From positions 28,276 to 92,275 of the forward strand of contig JACPWF010000025.1 in assembly GCA_016197155.1 (NCBI GenBank): a stretch of DNA of 64,000 nt, in the 5' to 3' direction. Under the pieces are notes generated by a model. It did no database searches, was not told the origin of the DNA, and saw nothing but the letters and a program-made list of their open reading frames with translations. This DNA is from Candidatus Omnitrophota bacterium (GTDB taxonomy: Bacteria > Omnitrophota > Gorgyraeia > 2-02-FULL-51-18). The position numbers and the translations under genes were made by a program. This document shows, piece by piece, positions 14,741 to 58,444 of the stretch (positions within the stretch are counted from its first letter, which is position 1; each line of letters begins with the position of its first letter).

Positions 14741-14829
14741 TGGCGGAGAGGGTAGGATTCGAACCTACGGTCGCCAGTGGCGACAGCGGTTTTCAAGACC
14801 GCCGCATTAGACCACTCTGCCACCTCTCC
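14741..14829 (-). tRNA. tRNA-Ser (anticodon UGA), CCA encoded
   Basis: Reverse complement GGAGAGGUGGCAGAGUGGUCUAAUGCGGCGGUCUUGAAAACCGC...: anticodon loop CUUGAAA, long variable arm, T-arm UAGGUUCGAAUCCUA, terminal CCA present. Confidence 0.8.
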
Positions 14830-16537: not shown

Positions 16538-16610
16538 TGAGGCGCCCGGGACTTGAACCCGGCACACCTTCCTTAAAAGGGAAGTGCTCTACCAGATGAG
16601 CTAGCGCCTC
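16538..16610 (-). tRNA. tRNA-Lys (anticodon UUU)
   Basis: Reverse complement GAGGCGCUAGCUCAUCUGGUAGAGCACUUCCCUUUUAAGGAAGGUGUGCCGGGUUCAAGUCCCGGGCGCCUCA; anticodon loop CUUUUAA; 73 nt. Confidence 0.8.
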
Positions 16611-36177: not shown

Positions 36178-36705
36178 TTATTCTTTTTCCTTCACCGATT
36201 GCAATTGACTCAAACGCTTCATCGCCGCGTCCCAACCGTCTTTCGCCCAGCTTTCGCAAACCGACGCGGCGTTTTTCACGATCCCCGGCAGTTCTTTTTT
36301 TTCGCCGGCGTCAAAACCTTCGAGCACGAAAGGGACGAGGTCCTTCGGCATGCGTTCATTTTTCACGCCGAGGCGCAGGCGCGCGAACGCCTCGGACCCG
36401 AGCGACTCGATCACCGACAAAAGCCCGTGATGCCCGCCCGCGCCCCCCGACGCGCGGAGCCGCATCTTTCCGAACGCGAGATTCACGTCGTCGCAGACCA
36501 CGAGAAGGTCTTTCAGGTCCGGCTTTTTCCGTTCGACGATCTCGCGGACCGCGCGGCCGGTGTCGTTGACAAAGGTGCCGGGCCTCACAAGCACCGTGTC
36601 TTTGGGCCCGAGTTTTTTCAGTTCATCGAGGACCCGGAAACCGATATTGTGACGCGTCTTCTCGTACTTTTTACCGGGATTGCCGATGCCAATGATAAAC
36701 TTCAA
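36178..36705 (-). CDS. pth: peptidyl-tRNA hydrolase
   Basis: (M)KFIIGIGNPGKKYEKTRHNIGFRVLDEL...; apparent TTG start codon. Confidence 0.9.
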   Translation of the reverse strand: MKFIIGIGNPGKKYEKTRHNIGFRVLDELKKLGPKDTVLVRPGTFVNDTGRAVREIVERKKPDLKDLLVVCDDVNLAFGKMRLRASGGAGGHHGLLSVIESLGSEAFARLRLGVKNERMPKDLVPFVLEGFDAGEKKELPGIVKNAASVCESWAKDGWDAAMKRLSQLQSVKEKE

Positions 36706-36727
36706 GAGAAAAAACCCACGAGAAAAC

Positions 36728-36850
36728 GGCTACCAGGATACCAGGAGACCGGGGCGCAGGACATCAGGAGACCAGATTATCAGGAATGTTTTGTCCCTGA
36801 TACCCTGATCATCTGATACCCTGCCTCCTGATAACCTGATCATCTGATTC
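36728..36850. repeat. dispersed intergenic hairpin repeat, copy 1 (ATCAGGA-array / CCTGATAACCTGAT element)
   Basis: The left arm carries 5-6 degenerate (A/C)YCAGGA(G/A) units, then a central T-run. The right arm carries complementary cctgataccctgatcatctgataccctgcctcctgataacctgat. It lies between rplY stop and pth start. Confidence 0.6.
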
Positions 36851-36856
36851 CCGCCC

Positions 36857-37549
36857 TTATGTTTGTTTCTTCTCCGCTTTGGGCTCTTCCTTTGGCTTCT
36901 CCGCGGCGGGAGCGCCCTCCTCTTCCTTCTTCTCGCGGATCACTTCGACTTCCGGCGTCTCGGCGGCGGCTTCCTCCGCTTTTTCTTCGATGTGGACCTG
37001 GACCTGGAACAAAAGCGCTTCGGGGTCGTTCAAAACTTTGAGCGTCTCCGGCAGGCGCAGGTCCTTCACGTGGATGGACTGATTGAGCTTGAGCCCGGAG
37101 ACGTCGACATCGATGTGTTTGGGGATGTCCGTCGGCAGGCACTGGATTTTAAGCTCGCGCAGGGGATGATCCAAAACGCCGCCTTCCTGTTTCACGCCGG
37201 CCGGCTCGCCCACCGCGCGGACCTCGACTTCGAGGGTGATCTTTTCCGTGAGCGAAATTTCGTTGAAATCGACGTGCAGGATCCCGCGCGTCACCGGATG
37301 ATGCTGGACTTCCTTGATGAGGACGGTGCGCGATTTCTTGGCGTTCTCAACGGATAAATGGATCAATAAATTTTCGGCGCCGGCGCCGCGGATGATTTTT
37401 GAAATTTCCCTTTCCGACAACGCCACCGAAACCGGCTCTTCGCCGCGGTGATACACCGTGCCCGGCACCGTGCCCTGCCCGCGGAGTTTTTTAACCGCCT
37501 GCTTGCCTTTGTCCTGTCTCACCGTCGCTTTTAATTTGATCTGTTCCAT
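36857..37549 (-). CDS. rplY: 50S ribosomal protein L25 / general stress protein Ctc
   Basis: MEQIKLKATVRQDKGKQAVKKLRGQGTVPGTVYHRGEEP...; acidic/lysine-rich C-terminal tail; 230 aa. Confidence 0.85.
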   Translation of the reverse strand: MEQIKLKATVRQDKGKQAVKKLRGQGTVPGTVYHRGEEPVSVALSEREISKIIRGAGAENLLIHLSVENAKKSRTVLIKEVQHHPVTRGILHVDFNEISLTEKITLEVEVRAVGEPAGVKQEGGVLDHPLRELKIQCLPTDIPKHIDVDVSGLKLNQSIHVKDLRLPETLKVLNDPEALLFQVQVHIEEKAEEAAAETPEVEVIREKKEEEGAPAAEKPKEEPKAEKKQT

Positions 37550-37568
37550 TTCTTTTCCTTTTTCTGTG

Positions 37569-38507
37569 TCAATTGAATAAACTGCTCACCGATTCTTCGT
37601 CGTGAATTCTCCGGATCGCCTCTCCCAGAAGCGGCGCCACGGACAACACTTTAAAAATGGGGTCTTTTTTATCCCCGAGCGGAATGCTGTCGGACACGAT
37701 GAATTCCTCGATCACCGATTTTTTAATCCGCTCGATTGCCGGGCCCGACAACACCGCGTGCGAAACCGCCGCGAAGATCCTGAGGGCGCCCGCTTTTTTG
37801 ATCGCCGCGGCCGCCTCGCAGATGGAGCTGGCGGTCGCCACGAGGTCGTCGATGATCACGATATTTTTCTTTTTCACGTCGCCCAAAATGTTCATCGCCT
37901 CGATGCTGCGGTCGTCGATGCGCCGTTTGTCGACGATCGCCAGATTCGCGTTCAGCCGTTTGGCGTACGCGCGCGCCATCTTGATCCCGCCCACGTCGGG
38001 CGAGGCGACGACGAGATTTTTTATTTTTTTCTTCTCAAAATAATCCATCACCGTGTTCACCGCGAACAGGTGATCCATCGGGATGTCGAAAAATCCCTGG
38101 ATTTGGCTGGCGTGCAGATCCATCGTGAGGATCCGGTCGGCGCCGGCCGTCGTCAAAAGGTTTGCGACAAGCTTCGCGGTGATCGGCACCCGCGGCTGGT
38201 CTTTGCGGTCCTGGCGCGCGTAGCCGAAATACGGGATCACCGCCGTGATGCGCCGCGCCGAGGCGCGCCTCATCGCGTCGATGAGGATGAGAAGCTCCAT
38301 CAGGTTGTTGTTCGTCGGCGGACAGGTGGGCTGGACGATGAACACGTCGCGGCCCCGCACGTCCTCGTTGATCTTGACGCGGATCTCGCCCTCGCTGAAC
38401 GTCGACACGAGCGCGTCGCCGAGCGGCGTTTTTAAAACCTTCGCGATCTTTTGGGCCAGTTCCGGATTCGCGTTTCCCGAAAATATTTTAAGTTCGCCGT
38501 TATGCAC
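37569..38507 (-). CDS. prs: ribose-phosphate pyrophosphokinase
   Basis: PRPP synthetase pattern (KIFSGNANPELAQKIAK..., DLHASQIQGFFDIPMDHL, PRPP-binding loop VDDLVATASS). Confidence 0.9.
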   Translation of the reverse strand: MHNGELKIFSGNANPELAQKIAKVLKTPLGDALVSTFSEGEIRVKINEDVRGRDVFIVQPTCPPTNNNLMELLILIDAMRRASARRITAVIPYFGYARQDRKDQPRVPITAKLVANLLTTAGADRILTMDLHASQIQGFFDIPMDHLFAVNTVMDYFEKKKIKNLVVASPDVGGIKMARAYAKRLNANLAIVDKRRIDDRSIEAMNILGDVKKKNIVIIDDLVATASSICEAAAAIKKAGALRIFAAVSHAVLSGPAIERIKKSVIEEFIVSDSIPLGDKKDPIFKVLSVAPLLGEAIRRIHDEESVSSLFN

Positions 38508-41694: not shown

Positions 41695-41765
41695 CTGCCC
41701 CGCTAGGATTCGAACCTAGACAATCGCCTCCAAAGGGCGGTGTGCTACCATTACACCACAGGGCA
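41695..41765 (-). tRNA. tRNA-Gln (anticodon UUG)
   Basis: Reverse complement UGCCCUGUGGUGUAAUGGUAGCACACCGCCCUUUGGAGGCGAUUGUCUAGGUUCGAAUCCUAGCGGGGCAG; U1-A72 acceptor start typical of tRNA-Gln; anticodon loop CUUUGGA. Confidence 0.7.
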
Positions 41766-50008: not shown

Positions 50009-50452
50009 TCAAATTTTCTTCACCAGGTTCGTGACACAGTCCCGAATCGTCGCGAGCGTGTTTTTGTAAAAATAGTCGGACATCCGGATCGGGTCCGGAA
50101 TGCCCTCTTTGCCCTCCGAGGAAAACTCCGTCAGGAGAAAAACTTTTTTTTCGGAATCCGGCGCGATCCGCAAGATCCAGTCCTTGTGCATTTTTTCCAT
50201 CACGAGGATCCTGTCAGCGGCCTTGATCCTCTCGGGCGTGAGCCGCCGCGTGCGGTGACCGGAGACGTCGACCCCTTCCTCTTTCATCGCGCGCACAGTC
50301 TCGTCGGTCGGCGGAAATCCGTCCACCGCGGCCACGCCCGCCGATCCGACCGCGAACTCCCCCGCCCGGCCTCCGGCGATTTTTTTAAACAAACCCTCCG
50401 CCATGACCGAGCGGCAGCTGTTGCCGGTGCAGACAAAGAGAATGTTTTGCAT
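50009..50452 (-). CDS. low-molecular-weight protein tyrosine phosphatase / arsenate reductase-fold protein
   Basis: P-loop CTGNSCRS (CX5R) at the N-terminus; 147 aa. Confidence 0.75.
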   Translation of the reverse strand: MQNILFVCTGNSCRSVMAEGLFKKIAGGRAGEFAVGSAGVAAVDGFPPTDETVRAMKEEGVDVSGHRTRRLTPERIKAADRILVMEKMHKDWILRIAPDSEKKVFLLTEFSSEGKEGIPDPIRMSDYFYKNTLATIRDCVTNLVKKI

Positions 50453-50463
50453 AAAGAATCAAA

Positions 50464-50586
50464 AAGGCTATCAGGATATCAGGAGATCAGGAGGTAGAAC
50501 ATCGGGAGACCAGGAGATCAGGAGTTTTCCTGATAACCTGATAGTCTGGTGTCCTGCCCCCTGATGGCCTGATAGCCTGATAGCCG
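50464..50586. repeat. dispersed intergenic hairpin repeat, copy 2
   Basis: ctatcaggatatcaggagatcaggaggtagaacatcgggagaccaggagatcaggag-tttt-cctgataacctgatagtctggtgtcctgccccctgatggcctgatagcctgatagcc; between the LMW-PTP gene start and the purE stop. Confidence 0.6.
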
Positions 50587-50598
50587 CCTTAACAAGAT

Positions 50599-51084
50599 TC
50601 ACAAAACCACTCTCTTCTTCAATATTTTCTCTCGATTTTTTTCCCTATAATCTACCAGCGCCTTAGCAAGTTTGGTGTCTTGAAGAGCCAGCATGCGCGC
50701 TGCCAAAAAAGCGGCATTGCGAACCCCGCCGGATCCCACCGCAACGGTGGCCACTGGGGTGCCTGCGGGCATTTGCACCGTAGATAAAAGAGAATCCATT
50801 CCTTTAAAAGAAGGGCTTTCGATAGGAATTCCGATAACGGGCAGTTCTGTGTGCGCCGCCACAACACCGGCCAAATGCGCCGCGCCGCCCGCCGCGCAAA
50901 TAAAAACCCGTATCCCGTTTTTCTTCGCCGCTTCCACGTAGCTCACCGTCTCTTTGGGGGTGCGGTGAGCCGAAAGCACGCGAACCTCGTAGCCAAGACC
51001 CAATTCTCTCAAAACTTCTCCGCAAGGTTTAAGCTGTTCTGCGTCGGAGTCACTTCCCATCAAAATGGCAACTTGTGGCTTCAT
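50599..51084 (-). CDS. purE: 5-(carboxyamino)imidazole ribonucleotide mutase
   Basis: [10 protein letters not shown]...SAHRTP...AGGAAHL; 161 aa. Confidence 0.9.
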
Positions 51085-57422: not shown

Positions 57423-58079
57423 CTACTGACTTACAATCGACTCAAATATTTTCCGCCCGTCGACGGAGCCCAATTCCCGCTCCGAAGCCCGCTCCGGATG
57501 CGGCATGAGCCCAAAGACGTTCCGCTTTTTATTGCAGATGCCCGCGATGTCTTCGACCGAACCGTTGGGATTGTCCGCGTAGCGCAAAAGGATCTGGTCG
57601 TTTTTTTTCAAATCCGCGAGCGCCTCGTCGTCGGCGAAATAATTTCCCTCCCCGTGCGCGACGGGCAGGCGGAGCCTCTGGCCTTTTTTGGTTTTCTTCG
57701 TGAATGCGGAATCGGCGCTTTCGACGCGGAGCTCGACAAACTTACAGACAAATTTTAAAGAGGCGTTTCGGAGCATGGCGCCCGGCAGAAGACCCGATTC
57801 GAGAAGGATCTGAAAACCGTTGCAGATGCCGATCACGAGCTTCCCGCGCTCGGCGTGTTTTTGCACGGCCTCCATCACCGGCGAGAAACGCGCGATGGCC
57901 CCGGTGCGCAGGTAATCGCCGTAGCTGAAACCGCCCGGAAGCACGACGCAGTCGTAGCGCGAGAGGTCGCGGTCCTTGTGCCAGACAAAATCCGCCTCCT
58001 GGCCCATCACGTTTTTTAAAACGTGACGGCAGTCCTCGTCACAATTCGAACCGGGGAAAACCACGACACCAAATTTCAC
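57423..58079 (-). CDS. purQ: phosphoribosylformylglycinamidine synthase glutaminase subunit PurQ
   Basis: (V)[15 protein letters not shown]..., [12 protein letters not shown] triad. GTG start assigned; the upstream in-frame ATG lies inside the repeat element. Confidence 0.85.
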
Positions 58080-58099
58080 AGAAAACCTCGTGTGAGAGC

Positions 58100-58195
58100 G
58101 GGTATCAGGATACCCGTTGATCAGGAAGCAGGACATCAGGAAACCAGGAAATCAGGATTTTTTTGACCTGATAACCTGATCCCCCGATACCCGCC
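58100..58195. repeat. dispersed intergenic hairpin repeat, copy 3
   Basis: gggtatcaggatacccg ttgatcaggaagcaggacatcaggaaaccaggaaatcaggat-ttttttg-acctgataacctgatcccccgatacccgcc; between the purS stop and purQ start. Confidence 0.6.
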
Positions 58196-58201
58196 TTCTC
58201 A

Positions 58202-58444
58202 CTAATTTTGTATTTCCCACCGATATTCCTCAATCACGGTATTCGCCAACAATTTTTCACACATCGCTTTGATATTTTTCTCAGTCCCCGCCCTGTCCGC
58301 GCCGTTCATTTCCAGTTCAATGTATTTGCCCATCCGCACGTCCCTGACGCCGCCAAAACCCATCGACGAGAGCGCCTGCCCCACGGCCTTGCCCTGCGGG
58401 TCGAGCACGGATTTTTTGAGCGTGACGTAAATTTTGGCTTTCAT
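58202..58444 (-). CDS. purS: phosphoribosylformylglycinamidine synthase subunit PurS
   Basis: MKAKIYVTLKKSVLDPQGKAVGQAL...; 80 aa. Confidence 0.85.
   Translation of the reverse strand: MKAKIYVTLKKSVLDPQGKAVGQALSSMGFGGVRDVRMGKYIELEMNGADRAGTEKNIKAMCEKLLANTVIEEYRWEIQN

What the first reader, a model, noticed from the sequence alone, without database searches (positions are those of the whole stretch)
36728..36850. Novel dispersed hairpin repeat family built from ATCAGGA arrays (copy 1 of 3 in this window)
Seen: three intergenic loci (36728-36850, 50464-50586, 58100-58195) share one architecture. Four to seven degenerate (A/C)(U/C)CAGGA(G/A) units form the left arm, followed by a short T-run. 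The complementary right arm always contains CCTGATAACCTGAT.

All three sit between co-directional minus-strand genes inside operons (rplY|pth, PTP|purE, purS|purQ).

Read on the plus strand, the arrays of single-stranded-looking CAGGA/AGGAG motifs resemble the GGA repeats of CsrB/RsmZ-type CsrA-sequestering sRNAs. Read on the minus strand, they present multiple anti-Shine-Dalgarno CUCCU stretches within operon mRNAs. Either way this looks like a functional RNA/REP-like element family rather than chance.
Basis: partly seen in the sequence, partly recalled or inferred. Interest (0 to 1): 0.65.

Follow-up and report, generated by a model that had tools for sequence, protein, structure and literature searches.

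The report
Octamer-built hairpin repeats between genes
Three ~110-135-base imperfect palindromes, each built from 8-base ATCAGG-containing modules, were inserted between genes of an Omnitrophota genome and belong to an undescribed REP-like repeat family found in several uncultured phyla; they show none of the defining features of a CsrA-sequestering RNA.

Summary
Window 36723-36856, 50461-50590 and 58092-58202 hold three copies of one discrete element. Each has a left arm of 8-nt units (ATCAGGAN), a short loop, and a right arm of CCTGATAN units. Each arm has a variant unit in the middle (GGCAGG/CCTGCC).

All three copies fill intercistronic spacers (rplY|pth, purE|LMW-PTP, purS|purQ) that are only 0-44 nt long in the nearest syntenic relatives. 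They are therefore insertions.

Pattern scans and a profile built from the window copies found about 70 further elements of the same architecture. They occur in MAGs labelled Omnitrophota, Elusimicrobiota, Auribacterota and Planctomycetota, and in metagenome contigs. None were found in viral contigs, phages or plasmids.

- They sit almost only between co-directional or convergent genes.
- They occur in both orientations relative to transcription.
- No transposase lies next to them.
- The hexamers are 87% identical within and between phyla, while the 2-nt spacers are near saturation (43%).
- Compensatory changes are almost absent, so the hexamer sequence itself appears constrained, not only its pairing.

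Best reading: a new REP/REPIN/MITE-like palindromic repeat family with an unknown sequence-specific partner, co-transcribed as a long interrupted stem-loop. The CsrA-sponge and anti-Shine-Dalgarno readings are not supported. Function is untested.

The parts
36723..36856 (+). Copy 1 of the element ('+' is the strand on which each hexamer is followed by A). Left arm 36732-36785: ACCAGG, ACCAGG, ACCGGG, variant GCAGGAC, ATCAGG, ACCAGA, ATCAGGA. Loop 36786-36795. Right arm 36796-36848: CCTGAT, CCTGAT, TCTGAT, variant CCTGCCT, CCTGAT, CCTGAT, TCTGAT. Termini AAAACGGCT / TCCCGCCC.
   Evidence: Sequence; inverted repeats; folds; alignment A1; nhmmer E=2e-47.
50461..50590 (+). Copy 2, the best preserved (58-nt arms). 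Left arm 50470-50523, loop GTTTT 50524-50528, right arm 50529-50581. Termini AAAAAGGCT / AGCCGCCTT.
   Evidence: (RNA -76/-73.5 kcal/mol, z about -9.7).
58092..58202 (+). Copy 3. Left arm 58104-58157 (full length), loop 58158-58166, right arm 58167-58188 (only 3 units, about 3 units deleted). The outer stem GTGAGAGCGGGT / ACCCGCCTTCTCAC abuts the purS stop codon.
36857..37549 (-). rplY (L25/TL5). Its stop codon TAA (36857-36859) directly abuts copy 1.
   Evidence: Pfam PF01386 + PF14693. 100% identical to a protein named '50S ribosomal protein L25 [Candidatus Omnitrophica bacterium]'.
36178..36705 (-). pth (peptidyl-tRNA hydrolase). TTG start lies about 18 nt downstream of the element's end on the mRNA.
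   Evidence: Pfam PF01195. In relatives pth starts 0-7 nt after the rplY stop.
50599..51084 (-). purE, upstream (in mRNA sense) of copy 2.
   Evidence: Pfam PF00731.
50009..50452 (-). Low-molecular-weight phosphotyrosine phosphatase / ArsC-like gene, downstream of copy 2. ATG lies 8 nt beyond the element's end.
   Evidence: Pfam PF01451.
58202..58444 (-). purS, upstream of copy 3.
   Evidence: ORF. Syntenic genes called PF02700 PurS in L243/L244.
57423..58079 (-). purQ, downstream of copy 3. The likely true start is GTG at 58079 ([10 protein letters not shown]...). The longer ORF reaching 58136 would run into the element.
   Evidence: Pfam PF13507; ORF translation; alignment with the purQ starts of relatives.

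Best explanation
The three loci are copies of a discrete, non-coding, imperfectly palindromic repeat of about 125-135 nt, a REP/REPIN/MITE-like element.

Shown:
- Each copy was inserted into a very short intercistronic spacer.
- The same element, with defined ends (AAAA(C/A)GGnT ... AnCC(G/T)TT) and a fixed plan (3 units, variant unit, 3 units, loop, mirror image), lies at unrelated intergenic sites in genomes labelled as several phyla.
- Its distribution follows the rules known for REPs.

Inferred:
- New copies are made in trans by an unidentified machinery. That machinery recognises the repeated ATCAGG/CCTGAT module sequence-specifically, most likely on a folded single strand of DNA, as REP-associated and IS200/IS605-type enzymes do with their hairpins.
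- Because the element sits inside operons, it is co-transcribed and folds in the mRNA into a stack of 6-bp helices separated by 2x2 mismatches.
- There it probably acts as a 3'-exonuclease barrier and/or a partial terminator that uncouples the two flanking cistrons. In the window, two of the three copies are followed by a U-run on the mRNA strand.
For: 1. Insertion.
- rplY|pth is 147 nt here but 0-7 nt in three syntenic relatives with 74-82% L25 identity.
- purE|PTP is 146 nt here but overlapping, 9, 18, 42 nt or overlapping in five relatives.
- purS|purQ is 122 nt here but 42-44 nt in two relatives.
- No element is detectable in about 95 kb of relatives' DNA.

2. Discrete dispersed unit.
- The three window copies align end to end.
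- Eighteen elements from many MAGs align in register.
- A profile of the window copies hits full-length elements at E=1e-18 to 1e-26 elsewhere.

3. REP-like distribution.
- Of elements with two flanking ORFs, 28 lie between co-directional genes, 8 between convergent genes and 1 between divergent genes. Gaps to the ORFs are mostly 0-30 nt.
- Examples: mreC|mreD, secY|adk, nuoD|nuoH.
- This matches the published rule for REPs (PMC3733652).

4. Both orientations relative to transcription occur (16:10 by the heuristic, 16:12 after adding two window copies). This fits a DNA-level origin.

5. Hairpin potential is significant with both RNA and DNA parameters. Unit helices are 89-90% standard pairs.

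6. Hexamers are 87.5% identical and spacers 43%. Almost no compensatory double changes occur. This argues for sequence-specific recognition of the module.

7. Further points.
- Tandem doublets of elements exist (L146, L155), as with REPIN/BIME clusters.
- A short-read assembly contig (L001) breaks inside copy 1, as expected of a multi-copy repeat.
- An A-rich 5' flank or T-rich 3' flank is common (15/21 and 12/21).
Against: - No transposase or RAYT was found next to any element or anywhere in about 1 Mb of element-bearing DNA. No split-arm 'autonomous' version was found. No target-site duplication could be recognised.
- The ends carry no GTAG/CGTC tag.
- Copies within one genome are hardly more alike than copies from different phyla (0.81 versus 0.78 overall; spacers 44% versus 39%). 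There is therefore no sign of a recent burst or a single master sequence as in active REPIN populations.
- Conserved hexamers beside saturated spacers look like purifying selection on every copy. A purely selfish, decaying element would not show this.
- Twelve to fourteen recognition modules are more than known hairpin-recognising transposases need.
- No transcript data exist. The simple terminator scan, run only on 36600-36950, did not flag copy 1 as a terminator, and termination inside rplY-pth or purS-purQ would be costly.
- The mild excess of G.U-compatible mismatches on the T-rich strand is not significant (41 versus 25, p=0.064).
Confidence: 0.45

Rival explanations
1. Host regulatory platform. 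Each 8-nt module is a binding site for one subunit of a cooperative, multimeric nucleic-acid-binding protein. On double-stranded DNA this would resemble MetJ on tandem 8-bp metboxes or the omega repressor on 7-bp heptads (my own knowledge of those systems). On RNA it would resemble TRAP or Csp/S1-type binders that would melt one arm. The dispersed elements would then form a genome-wide network of intercistronic switches or roadblocks.
For: - Hexamers are conserved base by base (87.5%) while spacers are near random (43% versus 33% expected). The values are the same within a genome and between phyla.
- Almost no compensatory changes occur, although single-sided changes are common. Base identity matters, not just pairing.
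- There are 12-14 modules at strict 8-nt phasing.
- A strand asymmetry is conserved across genomes: A follows the hexamer on both arms (77% and 73%), and one subfamily has an asymmetric mid-arm loop.
- Authors of the two closest precedents proposed unidentified global binding proteins (PMC2700814; PMC4679880).
Against: - No candidate protein exists, and no recurrent neighbouring gene was found.
- The elements are absent from close relatives that keep the same operons. The operons do not need them.
- Flanking genes have no common function.
- Both orientations relative to transcription occur, which argues against a strand-specific RNA switch.
- The arms are not equivalent as double-stranded sites.
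Confidence: 0.22
2. A purely cis-acting RNA structure: an intercistronic stabiliser, RNase III site or intrinsic terminator/attenuator. It is selected only for forming a long stem-loop in the operon mRNA, and its sequence similarity merely reflects common descent.
For: - The folds are very stable.
- The position is immediately after stop codons, between co-directional or convergent genes.
- U-runs follow the hairpin on the mRNA strand in copies 1 and 2. A/T-rich flanks are common elsewhere.
- REPs are known to act this way (PMC3733652).
Against: - There is no covariation. The shuffle control equals the observed value, and only 2 unit-helix pairs show double changes.
- Wobble-compatible mismatches do not track the transcribed strand. 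In the subfamily where the A-strand is sense, the disruptive A.C type lies on the sense strand.
- Both orientations occur.
- A structural role alone would not keep the same hexamer across phyla while the spacers saturate.
Confidence: 0.15
3. First reader, option A. The plus strand is transcribed as a CsrB/RsmZ-like small RNA whose many CAGGA motifs sequester CsrA/RsmA.
For: - CAGGA(N) resembles the CsrB repeat CAGGA(U/C/A)G (my own knowledge).
- There are 6-7 GGA motifs per arm.
Against: - The GGA motifs are base-paired in the stem on either strand. Sponge RNAs present them in loops or single strands.
- No Rfam family, Csr/Rsm families included, reaches its gathering score on the elements, and a permissive scan of copy 1 lists none.
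- No promoter-like site was found around copy 1.
- In the window, the CAGGA strand is antisense within essential operons.
- Orientation is not conserved.
- No csrA was found in the window or the loci.
- The copies are insertions absent from relatives.
Confidence: 0.03
4. First reader, option B. On the mRNA strand, the CUCCU stretches act as anti-Shine-Dalgarno sequences that regulate translation of neighbouring cistrons.
For: - CUCCUGAU units occur in the 3' arm of the mRNA-sense strand in the window.
- The downstream genes start 8-18 nt beyond the elements' ends.
Against: - The CUCCU stretches are already paired with the 5' arm.
- The downstream pth and PTP genes have no SD to sequester.
- In about half of the elements elsewhere, the opposite strand is the mRNA.
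Confidence: 0.03
5. Local slippage products or chance: generic 8-nt tandem repeats that arose independently at each site.
For: One-armed 8-nt arrays of ATCAGG, and of two shuffled control hexamers, are about equally common in viral contigs (36 versus 18 and 28 loci). Eight-nt tandem arrays as such are therefore ordinary.
Against: - None of the viral one-armed arrays has an inverted partner, while 46 of 120 metagenome hits are two-armed elements.
- The two-armed element has fixed length, ends, unit count and a mid-arm variant unit at unrelated loci and in different genomes.
- The enrichment is far above shuffles.
Confidence: 0.02

Closest known systems
REP / REPIN elements (repetitive extragenic palindromes; REP doublets forming hairpins, mobilised by RAYT transposases)
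   Same: - Non-coding, extragenic, dispersed.
- Two inverted halves form a roughly 100-nt hairpin in ssDNA or mRNA.
- Located between co-directional and convergent genes, just downstream of coding regions.
- Occasional tandem clusters.
- Present/absent between relatives (PMC3116915, PMC3733652).
   Different: - No GTAG or CGTC tag.
- Arms are built of 6-7 tandem 8-nt modules rather than one 20-40-nt palindrome each.
- No RAYT was found.
- Copies within a genome are as diverged as copies between phyla, unlike a REPIN quasispecies.
- The same module is shared across phyla, whereas REP families are usually genus-specific.
Geobacter metallireducens 'class 3 predicted global-regulator binding sites' (Aklujkar et al. 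2009, PMC2700814)
   Same: - Dispersed intergenic pairs of inverted arrays of about five short tandem units.
- The unit MTYCTGA (reverse complement TCAGRAK) shares the TCAGGA/TCCTGA core.
- One sits between proB and proA inside an operon.
- Absent from the sister species, and function unknown.
   Different: - The unit is 7 nt and contiguous (no mismatched 2-nt spacer), against 8 nt here.
- Only 8 pairs in one genome, and a different phylum.
- No profile-level similarity was tested.
- The authors suggested IHF/HU binding without evidence.
TAACTGA heptamer direct repeats of Beggiatoaceae, Cyanobacteria and Bacteroidetes (MacGregor 2015, PMC4679880); cyanobacterial STRR heptamer repeats
   Same: - A short unit repeated in intergenic DNA with a patchy cross-phylum distribution that suggests horizontal spread 'but no mechanism is evident'.
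- A sequence-specific binder is suspected.
- The right-arm unit here, read as TAACCTGA, differs from TAACTGA by one base.
   Different: - Those are direct arrays of 2-43 units with essentially no inverted partner (one indirect repeat in 170 sets).
- They are mostly oriented just upstream of start codons.
- Here the unit is a discrete two-armed palindrome of fixed length.
MITEs such as Neisseria Correia elements or enterobacterial ERIC (own knowledge)
   Same: - Roughly 100-150-bp non-autonomous inverted-repeat elements inserted between genes.
- Co-transcribed, and form hairpins processed in mRNA.
   Different: - No target-site duplication and no parent IS were recognised.
- The whole element is palindromic and modular, rather than TIRs flanking a unique core.
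CsrB/RsmZ-type CsrA-sequestering sRNAs
   Same: Many CAGGA-like motifs occur in about 120 nt.
   Different: - The motifs are paired, not exposed.
- The element is not an independent gene.
- Orientation is variable.
- No Rfam match was found.

Membership tests
REP / REPIN (RAYT-associated) | Extragenic position, mainly between co-directional and convergent genes, downstream of ORFs | tested here: met
   28 co-directional, 8 convergent, 1 divergent. Gaps to ORFs are mostly 0-30 nt. Flanking genes were verified by Pfam.
REP / REPIN (RAYT-associated) | Two inverted halves that fold into a hairpin in ssDNA or RNA | tested here: met
   Folds with RNA and DNA parameters give z from -2.9 to -9.8. Unit helices are 89-90% paired in 18 elements.
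REP / REPIN (RAYT-associated) | Unpaired GTAG (or CGTC) tag at one end of each REP | tested here: not met
   GTAG was found in 1 of 36 and CGTC in 0 of 36 element ends, against about 3.5 expected by chance.
REP / REPIN (RAYT-associated) | A cognate RAYT (Y1/HUH transposase) gene in the genome, typically flanked by the repeats | tested here: inconclusive
   tblastn with E. coli RayT against about 1 Mb (window plus 158 loci) gave nothing below E=0.68, and that best hit lies in a lysyl-tRNA synthetase gene. Whole genomes could not be searched.
REP / REPIN (RAYT-associated) | High copy number with a dominant master sequence (quasispecies) | tested here: not met
   Density is 3 per 64 kb here. Within-genome identity is 0.75-0.86, no higher than between genomes (0.78), and spacers are near saturation. 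Genome-wide copy number is not available.
MITE | Terminal inverted repeats, small size, no coding capacity | tested here: met
   The element is 110-135 nt. Its ends AAAACGG.../...CCGTT are inverted.
MITE | Presence/absence polymorphism at orthologous sites | tested here: met
   All three sites are empty in syntenic relatives.
MITE | Target-site duplication and a related autonomous IS with the same ends | tested here: inconclusive
   No direct repeat flanking the copies was recognised. The relatives are too diverged to align filled and empty sites. No recurrent neighbouring gene and no split-arm candidate was found.
CsrB/RsmY/RsmZ-type CsrA sponge RNA | GGA motifs exposed in hairpin loops or single-stranded stretches | tested here: not met
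   In the minimum-free-energy and centroid folds of both strands, the GGA/CAGG bases lie in the 6-bp helices. They are paired in 89-90% of cells across 18 elements.
CsrB/RsmY/RsmZ-type CsrA sponge RNA | Independent transcription unit (own promoter and terminator); match to known families | tested here: not met
   No promoter-like site was found around copy 1, the only copy scanned. The elements lie inside operons on the antisense strand. The only Rfam matches at gathering score in the window are three tRNAs; below threshold, copy 1 gives only microRNA-precursor-like hits.
CsrB/RsmY/RsmZ-type CsrA sponge RNA | csrA/rsmA present in the genome | not testable with these tools
   There is no tblastn hit in the window or the loci, but only 64 kb of the genome is available.
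Intrinsic (Rho-independent) terminator | Short G+C-rich stem immediately followed by a U-tract, at the end of a transcription unit | tested here: inconclusive
   On the mRNA strand, copies 1 and 2 end in GCCGUUUUCUC and AGCCUUUUUGAUUC; copy 3 has no U-run. The consensus scan, run only on 36600-36950, did not flag copy 1. The sites lie inside gene pairs that are adjacent or overlapping in relatives.
Geobacter class-3 paired heptamer arrays | Inverted pair of about 5 contiguous 7-nt units MTYCTGA | tested here: not met
   The unit here is 8 nt (a 6-nt core plus a 2-nt mismatched spacer), with 6-7 units per arm. The TCAGGA core is shared. This is a likeness of design, not shown homology.

The most novel reading that the evidence does not exclude
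The ATCAGG modules are read one by one by a multimeric, sequence-specific nucleic-acid-binding protein. It could be MetJ/omega-like on duplex DNA, or TRAP/Csp-like on one arm of the RNA. The dispersed palindromes would then form a previously unknown genome-wide control layer of intercistronic expression, shared by horizontal transfer among Omnitrophota, Elusimicrobiota, Auribacterota and Planctomycetota. They would be related in design to the unexplained Geobacter paired arrays and TAACTGA repeats.
Probability: 0.15. Interest if true: 0.75.

Novelty: new variant of a known kind. Interest (0 to 1): 0.5.

Why it matters
Repeat families of the REP/MITE type are known almost only from cultured Proteobacteria, Firmicutes and Cyanobacteria. 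This family is found in several candidate and poorly studied phyla.

It has an unusual modular design: 8-nt units, with hexamers conserved base by base within and between phyla while the spacers have drifted to near randomness. That pattern implies an unidentified sequence-specific partner (a transposase or a regulator) that must itself be shared across these phyla.

Finding the partner would explain this family. It might also explain the long-unexplained short-unit intergenic repeats of Geobacter, Beggiatoaceae and Cyanobacteria.

On the practical side, the element breaks short-read assemblies (L001). It also inflates intergenic spacers inside conserved operons such as rplY-pth, purS-purQ, secY-adk and mreC-mreD, and is likely to affect their expression.

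Tried and rejected
- **Rfam.** At gathering thresholds on the whole window and at E<=10 on copy 1, only tRNAs and sub-threshold microRNA-precursor look-alikes appeared, i.e. a generic long hairpin.
- **Literature.** A full-text search for six 14-mers of the element found nothing.
- **Viral contigs, phages, plasmids.** No two-armed element was found. The single viral pattern hit is a short unrelated hairpin.
- **One-armed ATCAGGNN arrays.** These occur in metagenome contigs, often just after stop codons, and at first looked like single-stranded GGA arrays. Control scans with two shuffled hexamers gave similar counts (36 versus 18 and 28). I therefore treat them as ordinary 8-nt tandem repeats and not as part of the family.
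- **Partner gene.** Three searches found nothing: RayT tblastn (the best hit is a LysRS gene), clustering of 310 neighbouring ORFs (only ABC ATPases recur), and arms split by 1-2 kb (spurious).
- **CsrA.** tblastn found none.
- **Covariation test of the hairpin.** It is uninformative because the hexamers hardly vary.
- **G.U versus A.C asymmetry, to name the functional strand.** 41 versus 25, not significant, and it does not follow the transcribed strand.
- **Shine-Dalgarno usage.** Only about a third of crude gene calls in the window have an SD-like motif, so the lack of SD before pth and PTP is not remarkable.
- **Closest relative.** The purE|PTP junction of the closest relative (P0122, 83% PurE identity) has a 112-nt gap, but its DNA could not be fetched.
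Full report
**1. What is in the sequence**

On the plus strand, each locus has:
- a run of 8-nt units whose first six bases are ATCAGG or a close variant (ACCAGG, ATCGGG);
- a short loop;
- a run of units whose first six bases are CCTGAT.

Enrichment tests:
- The 14-mer CCTGATAACCTGAT occurs exactly once per locus.
- With up to 2 mismatches there are 11 hits, all in the three loci, against 0.15 expected from shuffles.
- ATCAGGA occurs 22 times against 5.9 expected.
- A motif-density scan and an nhmmer profile built from the three copies find these three loci and nothing else in the 64 kb.

The copies align in register over their whole length (A1). The master plan is:
- left arm: AAAACGGCT, then ATCAGGAT, ACCAGGAG, ATCAGGAG, the 7-nt variant unit GCAGGAC, ATCAGGAG, ACCAGGAG, ATCAGGA;
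- loop;
- right arm: CCTGATAA, CCTGATCN, TCTGATAC, the variant unit CCTGCCT, CCTGATAA, CCTGATAG, CCTGAT, then AGCCGCCTT.

Copy 3 has lost about three right-arm units. Element limits are 36723-36856, 50461-50590 and 58092-58202.

Either strand folds into one long hairpin.
- As RNA: -48 to -76 kcal/mol, z from -3.9 to -9.8.
- As DNA: z from -2.9 to -7.8.

The stem is a stack of 6-bp helices (AUCAGG/CCUGAU) separated by 2x2 mismatches, because the 2-nt spacers of the two arms are not complementary.

**2. Context**

Pfam confirms the flanking genes, all on the minus strand:
- L25/TL5 (36857-37549) | Pth (36178-36705)
- PurE (50599-51084) | low-molecular-weight phosphatase (50009-50452)
- PurS (58202-58444) | PurQ (true start about 58079)

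The elements fill the spacers. The upstream stop codon lies 0-8 nt before the element, and the downstream start lies 8-18 nt beyond its end.

The L25 and PurE proteins are identical to proteins that NCBI names as from a 'Candidatus Omnitrophica bacterium' MAG, on a 116-kb contig.

**3. The copies are insertions**

Syntenic contigs of the nearest available relatives were fetched.

| Junction | Window | Relatives |
|---|---|---|
| rplY\|pth | 147 nt | 7, 0 and 2 nt in relatives with 82%, 75% and 74% L25 identity (L034, L035, L036/L037) |
| purE\|phosphatase | 146 nt | overlapping, 42, 18, 9 nt and overlapping, in five relatives with 80-81% PurE identity |
| purS\|purQ | 122 nt | 42 and 44 nt of unrelated sequence (L243-L246 and one gene table) |

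The profile finds no element anywhere in about 95 kb of these relatives.

The closest relative (83% PurE identity) has gaps of 112, 137 and 121 nt at purE|PTP|rpiB|next. These could be elements, but its DNA was not retrievable.

A short-read contig from another data set ends inside copy 1 (L001), as repeats often cause.

**4. The family elsewhere**

Genome scan:
- A scan of 185,579 species genomes with ATCAGGA-N(3-12)-CCTGATAMCCTGAT gave 32 loci.
- About 21 of them are elements of the same architecture.
- They come from MAGs labelled Elusimicrobia UBA6262 (5 contigs), Omnitrophota, Auribacterota, Pirellulales, Planctomycetia, Sedimentisphaerales, a partial one in WOR-3, and several unclassified 'bacterium' MAGs. 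Taxonomy of the labels was checked.

Metagenome scan:
- The window profile recognises 51 two-armed elements in 46 of those loci, 28 of them near full length.

Alignment: eighteen elements from many sources align in register (A2). The plan '3 units + variant unit + 3 units' per arm holds throughout. The ends AAAA(C/A)GGnT ... AnCC(G/T)T are conserved.

Two subfamilies differ in the mid-arm unit:
- GGCAGG/CCTGCC in the window and its like;
- an asymmetric GGAAGTGGnT opposite AnTCTTCCnCC in the Elusimicrobia-type copies.

Nothing comparable exists in viral contigs, phage genomes or plasmids.

**5. A control that mattered**

Many metagenome hits were one-armed tandem arrays of ATCAGGNN.

The same three-unit pattern with two shuffled hexamers is about as frequent in viral contigs (36 loci against 18 and 28). 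None of these arrays has an inverted partner.

One-armed 8-nt arrays are therefore ordinary background. The specific object is the two-armed element of about 125 nt.

**6. Distribution rules**

Across all elements with two flanking ORFs, 28 lie between co-directional genes, 8 between convergent genes and 1 between divergent genes. Gaps to the ORFs are mostly 0-30 nt.

Verified examples:
- mreC|mreD and rodA|spoU
- secY|adk
- nuoD|nuoH
- ftsX|ABC ATPase
- def facing yceG

This is the published pattern for REPs (PMC3733652).

The element has a polarity. On one strand (the 'A-strand') the hexamers of both arms are followed by A (77% and 73%). That polarity is not tied to transcription: 16 sense against 10 antisense by the heuristic, or 12 antisense after adding two window copies it missed. 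All three window copies are antisense.

**7. What is conserved**

In A2 the unit helices form standard pairs in 89-90% of cells, and the spacer positions in only 19-42%. Column shuffles do as well as the real alignment, and only two unit-helix pairs show a change on both sides. There is thus no covariation support.

Pairwise identity:

| Comparison | Hexamer columns | Spacer columns |
|---|---|---|
| All pairs | 87.5% | 43% (33% expected from composition) |
| Within UBA6262 | 87% | 44% |
| Within the window | 89% | 45% |
| Window versus UBA6262 | 87% | 39% |

Whole-element identity is 0.81 within genomes and 0.78 between genomes. Only adjacent doublets reach 0.92-0.93.

Spacers have therefore drifted nearly to randomness even within one genome. 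Meanwhile the hexamers stay fixed and do not swap to other complementary pairs. I read this as constraint on base identity, i.e. sequence-specific recognition of the module. This is inference.

Mismatches that are G.U on the T-rich strand outnumber those that are G.U on the A-strand by 41 to 25. This is not significant (p=0.064), and it does not follow the transcribed strand.

**8. Partner searches**

- No RAYT: tblastn with E. coli RayT against about 1 Mb. The best hit, at E=0.68, lies in a LysRS gene.
- No gene family recurs next to elements except ABC ATPases.
- There are no split-arm candidates.
- There are no GTAG/CGTC tags.
- No CsrA was found.

**9. Interpretation**

Shown:
- It is a discrete, dispersed, insertion-derived, hairpin-forming repeat family with REP-like placement.
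- It occurs in several phyla.

Inferred:
- It spreads through a trans-acting, sequence-specific machinery, most plausibly acting on a folded single strand, as in the REPIN/RAYT or IS200/IS605 systems.
- It forms a long interrupted stem-loop in operon mRNA, which may attenuate or stabilise transcripts. U-runs follow the hairpin in copies 1 and 2, and A/T-rich flanks are common elsewhere.

Three points weigh against a simple selfish-element picture:
- no transposase was found;
- there is no sign of a recent burst;
- every copy shows hexamer-only conservation.

These keep alive the rival that the modules are binding sites of a cooperative protein. The authors of the closest precedents guessed the same:
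- Geobacter metallireducens paired arrays of the heptamer MTYCTGA (= TCAGRAK), one of them between proB and proA (PMC2700814);
- the cross-phylum TAACTGA heptamer repeats (PMC4679880).

**10. Verdict**

This is a real and apparently undescribed family. I class it as a new variant of the REP/REPIN/MITE kind. Its modular design and cross-phylum hexamer conservation point to an unknown partner. Its function is untested.

Noticed in passing
L246 690-840 (Omnitrophica MAG GCA_016206825.1, purD|purE spacer): A related genome lacks the ATCAGG element. It carries a different long palindrome of about 115 nt (AAATCCCCCCTGCCCCCTTT ... AAAGGGGGCAGGGGGGATTT) in another junction of the same pur cluster. Different Omnitrophota lineages seem to hold different hairpin repeat families at intercistronic sites.
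   Followed up: no
L244 2998-3041 (purS|purQ spacer of a relative): The 'empty' site holds a small perfect palindrome, AAATCCGAAATTCGAATTTCGGATTT, unrelated to the element.
   Followed up: no
Contig of P0122 (ENA ERZ27296333, gene table only): The closest relative (PurE 83% identical) has gaps of 112, 137 and 121 nt at purE|PTP, PTP|rpiB and rpiB|next gene. These are the right size for three elements, one of them at the same junction as copy 2. Its DNA was not retrievable.
   Followed up: partly
L153 8736-8863 and L060 1932-2010: Two metagenome contigs from other organisms (proteins about 45-54% identical to the window's) also carry elements inside purine-biosynthesis clusters: next to purM, and two genes after purE. 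With prs-rplY|pth, purE| and purS|purQ in the window, this makes a possible but unproven association with purine/PRPP operons.
   Followed up: partly
L088 84-177, L141 3420-3497, L073 552-597, L047 393-462, L115 6989-7098: One-armed tandem arrays of 6-14 ATCAGGNN units lie mostly directly after a stop codon, with the CAGG strand in sense. Control hexamers form similar arrays at similar frequency in viral contigs, so these are probably generic 8-nt microsatellites.
   Followed up: yes
L078 1-1100: A satellite-like array of more than 1 kb of GGTATCAGG/GGGTATCAGG units (8-9 nt) lies on a 3.3-kb metagenome contig. Its origin is unknown and possibly eukaryotic.
   Followed up: no
L146 1161-1295 and 1297-1422; L155 828-941 and 1184-1297; L059 60-182 and 2266-2389: Elements occur as adjacent or nearby doublets that are 87-93% identical. 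These are the only pairs with clearly recent common ancestry, and they are reminiscent of REPIN/BIME clusters.
   Followed up: partly
L001 (Logan SRR12113391 contig, 1052 nt) = window 36813-37864: An independent short-read assembly of the same organism ends inside copy 1, consistent with a multi-copy repeat breaking assemblies.
   Followed up: yes
window 36680-36722 and 50440-50469: After the elements, pth (TTG start) and the phosphatase gene (ATG) have U-rich leaders without a Shine-Dalgarno motif. In relatives these genes overlap or abut the upstream stop codon (translational coupling). How they are translated after the insertion is unclear. Only about a third of crude gene calls in the window show an SD-like motif.
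   Followed up: partly
window 14744-14829, 16538-16610, 41695-41765 (all minus strand): Three tRNA genes are the only Rfam matches at gathering score in the window. About 80% of the crude ORF calls of 150 aa or more (36 of 45) lie on the minus strand.
   Followed up: no
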